From the human T2T-CHM13v2.0 reference genome, Homo sapiens, in assembly GCF_009914755.1 (NCBI RefSeq), contig NC_060931.1: 64,000 nt of DNA; one strand, 5' to 3'. A program made the position numbers and the translations under genes. The number at the start of each line of letters is the position of its first letter. Position 1 is the stretch's first letter. Of this stretch, positions 32,301-35,452 are shown in pieces. Below the pieces are notes generated by a model, which saw only the letters and a program-made list of their open reading frames with translations, was not told the origin of the DNA and did no database searches.

Positions 32301-32471
32301 GTTTGGGTATCGGGTCTGAGGCCTCGGAACCAGCGCCTTCCCCGGGAAAGCTGAGAGGCTCCACCACGTCTGTGTCGGGAGGAGGGTAGGGCGGGGGTGG
32401 GGGAAGCACTAACTGGGGTGGACCCCGAGCAGTGCCTCTGGGAGGCTTTTGTGGCACCTGCCGTCCACCAC
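32301..32471 (-). CDS. COBL: COBL alternative cassette exon (171 nt, 57 codons, phase 1-1): GGGRQVPQKPPRGTARGPPQLVLPPPPPYPPPDTDVVEPLSFPGEGAGSEASDPIPK
   Basis: gttgattccatatag|GTGGTGGACGG...ATACCCAAAC|gtatgt. Symmetric and in frame with exon 7, overlaps ORF 32251..32457, and resembles the remembered rodent Cobl proline-rich insert. Confidence 0.9.
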
Positions 32472-32508: not shown

Positions 32509-32665
32509 AACCAAGCCGTCACTCACTAGGCACCAAATCCAACCTCACTGGGCACCAGATCCAGCCACACTCAACACCAGATCCAGCCACACCTAACACC
32601 AGATCCAGTCATATCCAGCACCTAATCCATTCTCATCTGGCACCAACCACATCCAACCACACTCA
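32509..32665. repeat. 22-bp degenerate minisatellite (~7 units, consensus caccagatccagccacacyyar)
   Basis: cacc unit starts at 32531, 32553, 32575, 32597, 32619 and 32641, exactly 22 apart. Confidence 0.88.
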
Positions 32666-34378
32666 CACTTTAACATTTTACATACGTAGTGTTCTATCAT
32701 TGGAGCAGTTTGGAAAGATGTGCCTGGTTGCAATTTCTTTTTAACAGACACAACTACATAAATGCTGGGCTTGAAAACTATTCTTCAACACCCTCGACAG
32801 AGCTTTGTCAAGTTTAAAGGAACTCCTTTTATTAATGTTAGTCTTTTTCAGGTTCACAGATCTGTTTTTAGCCTACTCTTGTTGCTTTTCTAGAGCCACT
32901 GACCTATTCTGGCTAGATTAAGCATTCATTTAGCTTATCTCCTGAGTCCATTTATACTTTTCAACCCCTTTGGTTGTTTAGAATAATAGTTCTCCAAGTT
33001 TGTTTTGAAGAATGTCCTGAGTTGTAGAGAGGGTGGGGATGTTGTCCCAAGCACATGGGACACAAGGACTCAGGCCTCCAGGGCGGAATCAGGGGGTCCT
33101 GCCCTGGGTTGAAGTGACTGGCCTAGGGATTGGCACGATCCAACCACATACAGCCATTTACAGTGGATGCCACTTAAAATTTAAACCAGGGGCTTTTGTC
33201 CATTTATGAAAAATGGGGAGAGAGCTTGGAAGGGAGAATGGGGGGCTCTTCACGAAACAGGAGAAAACCAGGTTTATTTTAATGATCCACTGATAATGTT
33301 TTCTTTCAGTCCTTTGGGAAAGAGGATGAGCTGACATGGAATACAGGTTATTGCTTCTTAAGGTAACTGACTCCCAGGCTGAAATGCTAACACATTAAAA
33401 GCGAGGAACTGACTAAGGGGAAAGACGCTGACAAACTGCCACGGAGCTCTCACTAAAGGTCCAGAAACTGCCAAGGCAGCCACTTATCTCAGAAGGACTT
33501 TCCCTCCTGCAGCTGCAGACCTTAGGGCAAAGGCAAAACGCGGGGCTGCCTGGGTGGGTTAAAGGGCATGGTGAGTGGCCTGTGAGTGCTGGTGGCTTCG
33601 TCGTGAGCACTGACACACGCCATTCTTGGGGCTCTCAGCTCAGGAAGGTGTGACTCCTAGGCTGCCATTTTCCAACCACTCCATGGAAGAGCCATTTCTG
33701 TTCCAACATAAGTGAAATAACAAATGCTGAATGATTTAAAAAGAAAATGAACCCTTGACTCCCCTGGACCTGGACAGCGCCATCATTCAGCTTCTCTCCA
33801 CCTCGCCTGTAGCACGAGGGGTGGGCTATGATGATCTAATAGGTCTCTTTCTGCTCACAGATAGTATAATTCCATCTTCTTTCCTCTGGGCTCTCTTTCC
33901 CTCAAAGAAAATCAGGGTCTTTGCTAAATGTGTACCAGGTAATATAAGTGGAGATCAATTTCAAACAGGATGGTCCAAAAATTACTGAGCTGATGTCAAC
34001 TTGTCTATACATCACCTGTGGCCTAAGATCTCTTTGAAATGCCAAATGTCCTTCAAAGCAGTTTCCACGATGTCACCCTAGGAACTTCTCCTTTTGCCAT
34101 CAGAGACACACGTCGCACACTCACACTCACAGGCTTTCCATTTTCACCCTCTCCCGGCTCCTGCAGCCGTTTCTCCCCTTCCACCGTCCCCCGCCTCCTA
34201 AATGCTCACATAATGCCCACCAAATACTGCTAGTAAGATATGAAGTGAACTTGCAATTATTTCTTTCCAGCCCTTCTTTCTTTAGCATTAATATTTTTTG
34301 GGTTAATGTCATTATGGATGAGGCCACTGCAGGAGTTCACATCAGAGCTGACATTCCAGGACAGAGCAAGCATCCCCG

Positions 34379-34384
34379 CATGCA
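34379..34384 (-). promoter_or_regulatory. UGCAUG (RBFOX) element ~25 nt downstream of the exon 7 donor
   Basis: Plus-strand catgca; the position is typical of functional RBFOX sites. Confidence 0.4.
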
Positions 34385-34408
34385 GACGGCAGGCCGAGCC
34401 TCACTCAC

Positions 34409-34547
34409 CCATCGTGCTCTTCCTGTTCTCCTCCTTATCCTCAGTGCGGTTGGGGATCAGGGGACTCGGTGGTGGTGGCTGTGGTGGAGGGGGAGCTGGC
34501 GCTCGCCGCTTCTTCTTCTGTAAATCAATCTGTGACCCAAGAGATAC
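34409..34547 (-). CDS. COBL: COBL internal coding exon (canonical exon 7, 139 nt, phase 0 to 1): [46 protein letters not shown](G/V); carries a KRRAPxPP syndapin/PACSIN-SH3-binding motif
   Basis: Minus strand reads ccttctttgtacttcatag|GTATCTCTTGGG...AGCACGATGG|gtgagt with an open frame; peptide recognised as Cobl. Confidence 0.97.
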
Positions 34548-34610
34548 CTATGAAGTACAAAGAAGGAAAGTACAATCAAAGTACTTTGTACCTATGAAGT
34601 ACAAAGAAGG
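34545..34610. repeat. Perfect 22-bp direct repeat (34545-34566, 34589-34610) duplicating the exon 7 acceptor
   Basis: tacctatgaagtacaaagaagg occurs twice, offset by 44 nt. Confidence 0.97.
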
Positions 34611-35452
34611 CAGTATTAGGGTGATTGTGCTGGGGCAGGGACCTGCACCGGAAGGTGGTGCTCCAGGAGGGTTGTTAGATGGCCAGTTCCCTTTCCAGGT
34701 CCTCCCACACAGGCAGGGGAGGCCATGAGGCGAGAGACCAGCGGATGTCCAAGGAGTGGCCTGGAGGTGGCACAGTGTTGCTCATAGACACCCCAAAGAC
34801 CCCTATGAGCAGGGAGCTCATATTTTCTAGGGACTCCAGGCAAGTCTGGAGAGTTGGTAAACTTCCCTGTCACACAAGAGAATGAGACCCATAGTCCTTC
34901 ATTAAATGTAAGGAGAACAATTCCTTCTGGAACAGGATGGGCTGCCGTGAATTGTGATCACACAGAGGAAGAGCTGATGGGGGCAGCTCAGACCTCACCC
35001 TGCTCTGACTTAGGTTTGTTTCCCTGACTGCATGTTCACGTTCCAGAGCAGCTGCAGCCAAGACTATCTAATGGTCCACAGGTGGACACATCTTGATCCA
35101 GAATCGCAATGAAGTTTCTTAGTATATGGGTTATTAGATCGGTGTATGGGACATTAGCCCCCAACCACAGCAGAAATCCAGCTCCTGCTCACAGCTTTCA
35201 ACAGTGAAAGACACACAGCTTCTAAAGGCAGCTCATGAATACTGGGCAGGTCTAATTGCTGAATGTGAAATCTGTTTTGTCTGTAAAATTGAATTCACTG
35301 ATTCCATTTCTTTGTTTCTGAAGGACTACATAATCCTACTCTCCTCTCCTCCTCATTAGGGCGAAAGTTTTTATTCGTTCACTCTCATTGATTAAAATTC
35401 ATTGATTAAAGAACATTGTGTATAGAGCAGTGCAGAGTATGTGCAAAGAATG

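What the first reader, a model, noticed from the sequence alone, without database searches (positions are those of the whole stretch)
34545..34622. Duplicated 3' splice site with mutually exclusive hairpins at COBL exon 7 (possible RNA-structure splice switch)
Seen: the pre-mRNA reads cctaatactgCCTTCTTTGTACTTCATAG|gtacaaagtactttgattgtacttt CCTTCTTTGTACTTCATAG|GTATCTC, i.e. two identical acceptors 44 nt apart. The distal copy keeps a canonical branch point (CCTAAT, A at -25); the in-frame proximal copy has only TTTGATT (A at -29). The filler octamer GTACAAAG (34584-34591) is the exact complement of CTTTGTAC in both pyrimidine tracts. Pairing upstream folds a hairpin over the distal tract and AG; pairing downstream masks the productive tract. 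Distal use adds 44 nt, shifts the frame and stops at TGA 34457-34459. Inference: either the hairpin silences an otherwise damaging duplication, or this is a docking/selector switch linking COBL output to NMD.
Basis: partly seen in the sequence, partly recalled or inferred. Interest (0 to 1): 0.8.

Follow-up and report, generated by a model that had tools for sequence, protein, structure and literature searches.

The report
Duplicated splice acceptor in human COBL
The coding exon of human COBL in this window is preceded by two letter-identical splice acceptors 44 bases apart; the upstream one looks like a mostly silent by-product of a small insertion, not a proven RNA switch.

Summary
A perfect 22-nt direct repeat, 44 nt apart, duplicates the last 19 intron bases plus the first 3 exon bases of the COBL exon 34409-34547 (minus strand). 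It is the only exact local repeat of 20 nt or more in the 64-kb window. Using the upstream AG adds 44 nt and reaches TGA at 34459-34457.

- The hairpin over the upstream tract and AG is predicted: 10 bp, -8.5 kcal/mol. It forms first on a growing transcript, with pair probability 0.5-0.75 in contexts of 178 nt or more but 0.04-0.25 in shorter ones.
- The proposed second hairpin, over the productive tract, has probability 0.01 or less in all 9 contexts. A two-state docking/selector switch is therefore not supported.
- The annotated acceptor is self-sufficient. It has its own branch motif (TTGAT, A34576, -29), the only full yUnAy match in its 34-nt AG-free zone, and a longer pyrimidine run (12 versus 8).
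- A published lariat-derived branchpoint (hg19 chr7:51153025, one read) maps into the filler by my coordinate conversion, which rests on a recalled gene span.

No RNA-seq, population or cross-species data were available, so usage, age and fixation remain open. Most likely this is a tolerated decoy acceptor whose leakage goes to NMD.

The parts
34589..34610 (-). Upstream copy of the 22-nt repeat: pyrimidine tract, AG 34593-34592 and GTA. This is the decoy ('distal') acceptor, and no RefSeq exon starts at 34591.
   Evidence: D1 (100% identity). The hub annotation lists no exon starting at 34591.
34545..34566 (-). Downstream copy of the 22-nt repeat: the annotated acceptor (AG 34549-34548) and the first 3 exon bases.
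   Evidence: D1; hub annotation (exon 34409-34547).
34567..34588 (-). 22-nt filler between the copies. Together with GTA it carries inverted copies of neighbouring sequence.
   Evidence: I2-I5.
34584..34591 (-). Octamer GTACAAAG, the reverse complement of CTTTGTAC in both tracts (34606-34599 and 34562-34555).
   Evidence: I3 and I5. Chance is about 0.3%.
34577..34588 (-). 12-nt perfect palindrome CAAAGTACTTTG.
   Evidence: I4.
34584..34606 (-). Predicted 10-bp hairpin with a CAU loop that covers the upstream tract and pairs its AG.
   Evidence: -8.5 kcal/mol, 1 of 2000 shuffles as stable; mean pair probability 0.04-0.25 in contexts of 88-133 nt and 0.52-0.75 in contexts of 178-778 nt.
34567..34587 (-). 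Predicted central hairpin AAAGTAC/GTACTTT with TTTGATT in its 7-nt loop. It competes with the upstream hairpin for AAAG.
   Evidence: ensemble fraction 0.84 at 121 nt; 0.38-0.94; -5.2 kcal/mol.
34615..34619 (-). Branch motif CTAAT; A34616 lies 25 nt upstream of the decoy exon start.
   Evidence: full yUnAy match. P(unpaired) is 0.76-0.97.
34575..34579 (-). Branch motif TTGAT; A34576 lies 29 nt upstream of the annotated exon start. It is the only full yUnAy match inside the AG-free zone 34583-34550.
   Evidence: A published branchpoint at hg19 chr7:51153025 converts to window 34569-34579 using a recalled hg19 gene span.
34559..34570 (-). 12-nt uninterrupted pyrimidine run of the annotated acceptor. 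The decoy has 8 (34610-34603).
   Evidence: U count in -3..-40 is 19 versus 13.
34409..34547 (-). COBL coding exon ([46 protein letters not shown]).
   Evidence: hub annotation.
34457..34459 (-). TGA reached when splicing uses the upstream AG (+44 nt).
34622..34631 (-). Upstream arm of a 9-of-10 inverted repeat with 34569-34578. If paired, it would bury TTGAT.
   Evidence: I2. Pair probability is 0.00-0.40 depending on context.

Best explanation
A small, probably young, local insertion of 44 nt gave the COBL exon two sequence-identical acceptors. The insertion is a direct copy of the acceptor joined by a 22-nt filler that contains inverted copies of neighbouring sequence.

The annotated downstream copy keeps working because the insertion supplied a complete 3' splice-site module:
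- a branch motif, TTGAT, with A34576 at -29;
- a pyrimidine run lengthened to 12;
- no AG between that branch point and the annotated AG.
A spliceosome that branches inside the filler can therefore only use the productive AG.

The upstream copy keeps the old branch motif (CTAAT, -25) and acts as a decoy. It is partly held down by a 10-bp hairpin formed with the inverted octamer as soon as that is transcribed. Whatever escapes adds 44 nt, shifts the frame, stops at TGA 34459-34457 and should be removed by NMD.

Status of each step:
- Shown: the sequence anatomy and the frame consequence.
- Predicted only: the RNA structures.
- Published data with an inferred coordinate conversion: one lariat read placing a branch point in the filler.
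- Inferred: relative use of the two AGs, NMD of the long form, and the age and origin of the insertion.
For: - Identical 22-mers mean the -19..+3 splice signal is the same at both sites. Any difference must therefore lie upstream or in structure.
- A34576 is the only full yUnAy match in the AG-free zone 34583-34550. AG dinucleotides lie at 34631, 34593, 34585 and 34549. The pyrimidine run is 12 versus 8, and the U count 19 versus 13.
[quoted passage not shown] Choice of branch point should therefore decide the AG.
- File S2 of PMC5959240 lists a branchpoint at hg19 chr7:51153025, minus strand, score 1, at moderate or high confidence. With the T2T gene span from the hub and my recalled hg19 span, the offset is 93544-93554. 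That places the branchpoint at window 34569-34579, and A34576 needs an offset of 93551.
- Upstream hairpin: -8.5 kcal/mol and 1 of 2000 shuffles as stable. It is the first structure on a growing transcript, and its probability is 0.52-0.75 in the 6 contexts of 178 nt or more. The G of the upstream AG is unpaired with probability 0.00-0.04 in all 9 contexts.
- With short-range local folding (span 40), the upstream tract core is unpaired at 0.16 against 0.69 for the productive one.
- None of the RefSeq exons listed by the hub starts at 34591.
Against: - No RNA-seq, lariat, probing or conservation data for this site could be examined, so actual usage of the upstream AG is unknown. Its absence from RefSeq could simply reflect NMD or annotation policy.
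- The structure prediction is context-dependent. The upstream hairpin has probability 0.04-0.25 in the 3 short contexts. With local-folding spans of 60-150, both tract cores are mostly paired (0.07-0.11 against 0.08-0.25), and the productive AG heptamer is, if anything, less accessible.
- Hairpins this stable are common: 154 separate places on this strand of the window.
- Genome-wide, real splice sites are reported to be more structured than decoys (PMC3041747, passages). Structure is therefore not a general mark of silencing.
- By my own base-by-base comparison with the recalled U2 pairing motif, the old branch motif CTAAT pairs better than TTGAT.
- The branchpoint evidence is one read. Its mapping rests on a recalled hg19 gene span. 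If hg19 lacked the 44 nt, the same coordinate would fit the old branch point at -25.
Confidence: 0.5

Rival explanations
1. Regulated RNA-structure switch coupled to NMD. The filler toggles between pairing with the upstream tract (decoy masked, productive mRNA) and another fold (decoy exposed). A helicase, an RNA-binding protein or transcription speed would then tune COBL output through unproductive splicing.
For: - Two predicted states differ by only 2.7 kcal/mol, with a findpath barrier of 9.5 to 12.2 kcal/mol.
- The two hairpins compete for AAAG.
- Use of the decoy gives a premature stop.
- There is a precedent for stem-loops that hide splicing signals and control a poison exon: SF3B3, in PMC11162794 (abstract and passages).
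Against:
- The alternative state does not expose the decoy AG. Its G stays paired in all contexts.
- There is no evidence of conservation, of regulated isoforms, or of any COBL-specific report.
- The perfect identity of the copies suggests a recent event rather than an evolved device.
Confidence: 0.08
2. Unmasked competition. Structure is irrelevant, and both acceptors are used according to branch-site and tract strength. A sizeable constant fraction of COBL pre-mRNA is then spliced to the upstream AG and destroyed by NMD (constitutive unproductive splicing).
For: - The splice signal is identical from -19 to +3.
- The decoy keeps a full yUnAy branch motif at an ideal distance, -25. By my own comparison this motif has the better U2 complementarity.
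- Accessibility predictions do not separate the sites robustly.
Against: - The productive site has the longer U-rich tract.
- The one mapped branchpoint falls in the filler by my conversion.
- No annotated transcript uses 34591 (hub table). The last two points are weak.
Confidence: 0.22
3. The old branch point A34616 serves the productive AG. The fold-back of the filler onto the upstream tract hides the first AG, so the second step skips to the annotated AG 68 nt downstream of the branch.
For: - The CTAAT motif is predicted unpaired (0.76-0.97), while the decoy AG is paired.
- Structure that sequesters elements or shortens distances is a described idea (discussion passages of PMC4691745).
Against: - A further AG at 34585-34584 also lies between this branch point and the productive AG.
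- By my conversion, the mapped branchpoint lies in the filler and not at 34616.
- Hairpin occupancy is only 0.04-0.75.
Confidence: 0.07
4. The 44-nt insertion is a polymorphic or CHM13-private allele, or an assembly error. In that case it is not a feature of the human COBL gene in general.
For: - The copies are identical at 22 of 22 positions, so the event may be very recent.
- No second human assembly could be consulted.
- If hg19 lacked the insertion, the mapped branchpoint would equally fit the old branch point at -25.
Against: - The T2T and recalled hg19 gene spans differ by only 10 nt in 300.6 kb. The branchpoint-to-TTGAT offset (93551) lies between the offsets at the two gene ends (93544 and 93554).
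- An assembly error of this kind is unlikely in a finished haploid assembly. That is general knowledge and was not tested here.
Confidence: 0.1

Closest known systems
Cryptic or alternative upstream 3' splice sites whose use gives a premature stop (unproductive splicing / AS-NMD)
   Same: A second AG with its own tract and branch motif lies upstream of a coding exon. Using it adds 44 nt, shifts the frame and meets a stop well upstream of later exon junctions.
   Different: Here the competing site is a letter-perfect copy of the real one, not a degenerate look-alike. No transcript using it has been seen by me or is annotated.
Stem-loops that conceal splicing signals and control poison-exon use (SF3B3; PMC11162794, abstract and passages)
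   Same: A local intronic stem-loop is predicted to cover a splicing signal whose use would lead to a stop-containing mRNA.
   Different: In SF3B3 the concealed elements are branch sites. That structure is conserved from fly to human and was validated by SHAPE and compensatory mutations. Here the covered elements are the tract and the AG, both branch motifs are predicted open, and nothing is validated or known to be conserved. Human COBL did not appear in the held part of that paper's supplement; only COBL entries of other species did (the file is cut).
Docking/selector competing RNA pairings (Dscam exon 6, as summarised in the introduction of PMC4691745)
   Same: One short element (GTACAAAG) is perfectly complementary to two alternative partners next to two alternative 3' splice sites (I3 and I5).
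   Different: In Dscam the pairing activates the chosen exon, and many selectors are conserved. Here one of the two pairings is predicted essentially never to form (0.01 or less). The two partners are identical only because they are one duplication.
Disease variants that place an AG inside the AG-exclusion zone of an acceptor (PMC9284458, abstract in the listing; PMC7317903, passages; PMC1431707, abstract in the listing)
   Same: The arrangement puts AGs (34593, 34585) between the old branch motif and the productive AG. In patients this typically causes mis-splicing.
   Different: Here the insertion also brought a new branch motif downstream of those AGs, which restores a clean 34-nt AG-free zone. 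That would explain why it is tolerated.
Decoy 3' acceptors and decoy exons (decoy exons: PMC6097662, search listing only; the caspase-2 intronic decoy acceptor is recalled, not seen in any call)
   Same: A complete but unproductive acceptor lies close to a real one.
   Different: Known decoys act by engaging splice sites non-productively to cause exon skipping or intron retention. There is no evidence of such an effect here.

Membership tests
Alternative tandem 3' splice sites | Both AGs are observed as exon starts in mRNAs | not testable with these tools
   No transcript or read data were available. The hub table lists no exon starting at 34591.
AS-NMD (unproductive splicing) | Use of the alternative site creates a premature stop upstream of later exon junctions | tested here: met
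   stop after 44 codons, TGA 34459-34457, in exon 7 of 13 (hub table). The NMD distance rule is recalled.
AS-NMD (unproductive splicing) | The stop-containing isoform exists and rises when NMD is blocked | not testable with these tools
   No expression data. Literature searches found no COBL report: the top 15 of 528 papers contain no mention of COBL.
Docking/selector competing RNA structures | One element can pair with each of several alternative partners | tested here: met
   I3 and I5: 8 of 8 complementarity to both tracts.
Docking/selector competing RNA structures | Each alternative pairing is a credible, populated structure | tested here: not met
   Filler with the productive tract: mean pair probability 0.00-0.01 in 9 of 9 contexts; ensemble fraction 0.0001.
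Docking/selector competing RNA structures | Pairings are conserved or covary across species | not testable with these tools
   No other vertebrate genome is held. Two scans of genome contigs found nothing.
Hairpin-masked splice site | A local stem-loop includes the signal and is more stable than composition predicts | tested here: met
   -8.5 kcal/mol, 1 of 2000 shuffles as stable; 101-nt region z = -3.79, 0 of 200 shuffles. However, 154 places in the window hold an equally stable 23-mer.
Hairpin-masked splice site | The masked site is clearly less accessible than the used site | tested here: inconclusive
   0.16 versus 0.69 at span 40, but 0.07-0.11 versus 0.08-0.25 at spans 60-150; depends on context length.
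Hairpin-masked splice site | Breaking and restoring the stem changes splice-site use | not testable with these tools
   Needs a minigene experiment.
Distant-branch-point exons (extended AG-exclusion zone) | An AG-free zone much longer than the usual 40 nt or so upstream of the acceptor | tested here: not met
   the nearest upstream AG is at 34585-34584, so the zone is 34 nt.
Recursive splice site | The AG is followed directly by a strong 5' splice-site sequence, with a removable downstream segment | tested here: not met
   GTACAA follows the upstream AG. By my reading against the recalled consensus it lacks the consensus bases at +4 to +6. The 44-nt segment leaves only 15 nt before A34576.
Tandem repeat array / known RNA family | Detected by Tandem Repeats Finder or Rfam | tested here: not met
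   0 rows; 0 matches at E up to 1 in 33800-35300.

The most novel reading that the evidence does not exclude
The duplicated acceptor and its inverted octamer form a bistable RNA element. The element gates entry into an NMD-destined isoform, so that COBL output is set by how the nascent intron folds (through transcription speed, a helicase or a binding protein). This would be a human or primate example of a splice switch born in a single insertion event.
Probability: 0.08. Interest if true: 0.65.

Novelty: new member of a known kind. Interest (0 to 1): 0.35.

Why it matters
If the upstream copy is used at all, part of COBL pre-mRNA is wasted through a frameshifted isoform. Variants in the filler, the stem or the TTGAT motif could then change COBL dosage without touching the coding sequence. 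That is worth knowing when intronic variants at this exon are interpreted.

It is also a clean natural experiment on how a spliceosome chooses between two identical acceptors. Here only branch site, tract length and local structure differ.

If the copy is silent, this is simply a tolerated insertion. It shows that an acceptor duplication can be neutral when it carries its own branch site.

Tried and rejected
- Other genomes: none are held for this assembly. A 22-mer scan and a degenerate exon-pattern scan of genome contigs for stray vertebrate DNA both found 0. The age of the insertion could therefore not be tested.
- Paralogue comparison: a search of the own genome with the exon peptide gave 7 matches. 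Only the exon itself was significant (E = 1e-21); the next best had E = 0.945.
- Repeat-family origin: a DNA search of the own genome gave 2 matches, the locus itself and one 52-nt, 85% match at chr7:96683963-96684013. That second locus is an 11-nt-period AT-rich array. I treat it as low-complexity likeness, not homology.
- Idea that the filler is a gapped inverted copy of the upstream 54 nt: not significant. The local alignment kept only the octamer, and 238 of 5000 random pieces scored as high.
- Branchpoint maps:
  - Taggart 2017 (PMC5378181): no hit for COBL or for the coordinate prefixes in the held text. Table S1 could not be read and other tables are cut.
  - Mercer 2015 (PMC4315302): the only hits were chr2 capture probes, and the file is cut.
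  - Pineda and Bradley 2018: no further COBL branchpoints near the other exons of the window in the held part of the file. Absence of a branchpoint at 34616 therefore means nothing.
- Anchoring the hg19 coordinate: text searches for chr7 coordinate prefixes and for the acceptor sequence found 0 papers.
- COBL literature: 227 papers hold COBL plus the splicing terms, and none of the 15 listed concerns this acceptor. The two papers I opened for COBL events report alternative-terminator events. The third mentions only COBLL1 and an author named Coble.
- Searches for papers on duplicated acceptors by phrase found nothing relevant.
Full report
**What is there**

On the minus strand, which is the COBL sense strand, the intron ends with CCTAATACTG followed by a 22-nt block, CCTTCTTTGTACTTCATAGGTA. 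A 22-nt filler, CAAAGTACTTTGATTGTACTTT, comes next, and then the same 22-nt block again. The exon follows.

The repeat finder reports the block as two 100% identical copies at 34545-34566 and 34589-34610, with spacing 44 (D1). The upstream AG is 34593-34592. The annotated AG is 34549-34548, and the exon 34409-34547 begins at the G of GTA.

The last 19 intron bases and the first 3 exon bases are the same at both sites. Any conventional splice-site score over -19..+3 must therefore be equal for both.

The octamer GTACAAAG (34591-34584) is the exact reverse complement of CTTTGTAC in both copies (I3 and I5). The filler also holds a 12-nt perfect palindrome (I4). In addition, it holds a 9-of-10 inverted match to 34631-34622, upstream of the old branch motif (I2).

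**Is it more than chance?**

In the whole 64-kb window this is the only exact, non-microsatellite direct repeat of 20 nt or more within 100 nt (1 event). At 18 nt there is one more, at 32553/32575.

An 8-nt reverse-complement match to the block occurs in 679 of 200000 random 25-mers of the window, and in 617 of 200000 shuffles of the filler.

Tandem Repeats Finder finds no array. Rfam finds nothing in 33800-35300. The own genome holds no other copy, apart from a 52-nt, 85% likeness to an 11-nt-period AT-rich array on the same chromosome, which I regard as incidental.

The feature is therefore a real, single, local rearrangement: a direct duplication of the acceptor joined by a filler with inverted pieces. 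A template-switch type of origin would fit the mix of direct and inverted copies. That is inference only, because a gapped inverted alignment of the filler to the upstream 54 nt was not significant (238 of 5000 null pieces scored as high).

**Consequences for the message**

The exon is open only in frame 1 and encodes [46 protein letters not shown].

Starting the exon at 34591 adds 44 nt. This gives 44 residues and then TGA at 34459-34457.

A third AG, at 34585-34584, would add 36 nt in frame. That stretch ends in TAG at 34550-34548.

Every AG upstream of the annotated one therefore gives a stop. This is exon 7 of 13 (hub table). By the usual rule, which I recall rather than cite, such messages should be NMD substrates.

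**Splice-signal anatomy**

I listed every A upstream of the two AGs.

| Feature | Decoy (upstream) site | Annotated site |
|---|---|---|
| Full yUnAy match | A34616 in CTAAT, -25 | A34576 in TTGAT, -29 |
| Longest pyrimidine run | 8 | 12 |
| U count in -3..-40 | 13 | 19 |

- AG dinucleotides upstream of the exon lie at 34631, 34593, 34585 and 34549. The annotated acceptor therefore has a clean AG-free zone of 34 nt (34583-34550).
- A34576 is the only full consensus match inside that zone.
- The yUnAy consensus is from the abstract of PMC2367711 (listing).
- Both pentamer types occur among mapped human branchpoints. In the 68 rows of Taggart's Table S2 that I saw, TTG(A)T occurs twice and CTA(A)T three times.

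[quoted passage not shown] A branch at A34576 can therefore only lead to the productive AG. A branch at A34616 should lead to the decoy AG.

Even so, by my own comparison with the recalled U2 pairing motif, CTAAT does pair better.

**Published branchpoint**

[quoted passage not shown] Its score is the number of lariat reads with a mismatch at the branch (legend; methods passages).

It contains chr7:51153025, minus strand, score 1.

The hub gives the T2T span of COBL as window -34547..266069, that is chr7:51177453-51478069, 300617 nt. My recalled hg19 span is chr7:51083909-51384515, 300607 nt. The offsets at the two ends are 93544 and 93554.

Any offset in that range puts the branchpoint at window 34569-34579. 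That is inside the filler and downstream of the decoy AG. A34576 needs an offset of 93551, and A34571 needs 93546.

This is the only experimental datum I found, and it favours a working branch site inside the insertion.

Caveats:
- It is one read.
- The hg19 span is recalled.
- Indels between the assemblies could move the offset.
- If hg19 lacked the 44 nt, the same coordinate would fit the old branch point at -25.
- The held copies of this file and of the other branchpoint maps are cut, so the absence of a record at 34616 says nothing.

**RNA structure**

The 101-nt region folds better than all 200 dinucleotide shuffles (-24.1 kcal/mol, z = -3.79). What it folds into depends on how much sequence is given.

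- *Short contexts (88-133 nt).* The two copies pair with each other around a central hairpin, AAAGTAC/GTACTTT, that shows TTTGATT in its loop. The probability of the central hairpin is 0.72-0.94. Both AGs are paired.
- *Longer contexts (six, from 178 to 778 nt).* The main local element is a 10-bp hairpin with a 3-nt loop over CTTTGTACTTCATAGGTACAAAG (34606-34584). Its mean pair probability is 0.52-0.75. The productive AG is then largely open: its A has P(unpaired) 0.54-0.98 and its G 0.49-0.90.
- *The hairpin itself.* It is -8.5 kcal/mol, and 1 of 2000 shuffles is as stable. It is the first structure to appear on a growing transcript, as soon as 34584 is made.
- *The G of the decoy AG.* It is paired in every context (P unpaired 0.00-0.04).
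- *The two main states.* They differ by 2.7 kcal/mol, with an estimated barrier of 9.5 to 12.2 kcal/mol.

Points against reading much into this:
- 154 separate places on this strand of the window hold an equally stable 23-mer.
- In window-limited local folding, the clear asymmetry (decoy tract core unpaired 0.16, productive 0.69) appears only at a maximum span of 40. At spans of 60-150 both are mostly paired: 0.07-0.11 for the decoy and 0.08-0.25 for the productive core.
- A genome-wide study reports real splice sites to be more structured than nearby decoys (PMC3041747, passages).
- All of this is naked-RNA thermodynamics.

**Most likely mechanism (about 0.5)**

The insertion duplicated the acceptor and also delivered a new branch motif and a longer U-rich tract directly upstream of the productive AG. 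The exon therefore kept a complete, self-contained 3' splice site.

The upstream copy is a decoy with the old branch motif. It is partly restrained by the hairpin that the inverted octamer makes with its tract. Leakage gives a frameshifted message that NMD should remove.

The rivals, with rough weights:
- Constant, sizeable unproductive use of the decoy, with no role for structure: 0.22.
- A polymorphic or private allele: 0.10.
- A regulated fold-dependent switch: 0.08.
- Use of the old branch point with the decoy AG skipped because it is paired: 0.07.

These are not all mutually exclusive.

**Comparison with what is known**

The arrangement works like a cryptic upstream acceptor coupled to NMD. 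It possibly also works like the stem-loops that hide splicing signals next to poison exons (SF3B3, PMC11162794).

It resembles the Dscam docking/selector idea only in that one element can pair with two partners. One of the two pairings fails the test of being populated, so I do not file it there.

It is the mirror image of disease variants that put an AG into an AG-exclusion zone (PMC9284458 and PMC1431707, abstracts in the listing; PMC7317903). Here the new AGs came together with a new branch site downstream of them.

It is not a distant-branch-point exon, a recursive splice site, a tandem array or a known RNA family.

**In print?**

I found nothing on this acceptor.
- The COBL splicing search returned 227 papers. 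None of the 15 listed was relevant.
- Three papers were opened.
- The sequence-string search returned 0.
- The coordinate search returned 0.
- The COBL/NMD search showed no COBL mention in its top 15 of 528.

Supplementary tables of large splicing or NMD studies may list the junction, and I could not search those.

**Verdict**

The switch interpretation is only partly supported.

This is a curious, clean example of a duplicated acceptor, and most probably a tolerated one. I rate it of modest interest (0.35). It could become more interesting if junction counts or primate alignments show regulated use or conservation.

Noticed in passing
window 32553-32596 (minus strand), about 80-125 nt upstream of the alternative exon 32301-32471: A short tandem repeat with a 22-nt unit (an 18-nt exact repeat at spacing 22; GGATCTGGTG-rich) lies just upstream of the acceptor of an alternative COBL exon.
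   Followed up: partly
L002 1501-1553 (own genome chr7:96683963-96684013): An AT-rich array of period 11 (unit TAATAGTACTT, 5.3 copies) resembles the COBL filler: 85% over 52 nt, E = 7.3e-6. The COBL acceptor region also reads as loosely 11-nt periodic GTAC-led units, and 44 = 4 x 11, but Tandem Repeats Finder does not call it.
   Followed up: partly
window 34584-34585 (minus strand): A third AG lies between the two acceptors. Using it would add 36 nt in frame, but that stretch ends in a TAG stop at 34550-34548.
   Followed up: yes
window 34639-34658 and 34683-34702: A 20-nt inverted repeat, 70% complementary with 24 nt between the arms, lies in the GC-rich intron stretch upstream of the branch motif (I1).
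   Followed up: no
window 34525-34529 with 34621-34625, and 34533-34536 with 34617-34620: In folds of 101-133 nt, exon bases (GGGT and GATTG) pair with intron bases (CAATC, ACCC) flanking the old branch motif. This closes the whole duplicated region into one long imperfect stem.
   Followed up: partly
Supplement of PMC11162794 (not the window): The table of 'concealed branch site' stem-loops lists COBL introns of two other species (records on chr2 and chr6 of non-human assemblies). Human COBL was not in the held, cut part. Whether those are the homologous intron is unknown.
   Followed up: no
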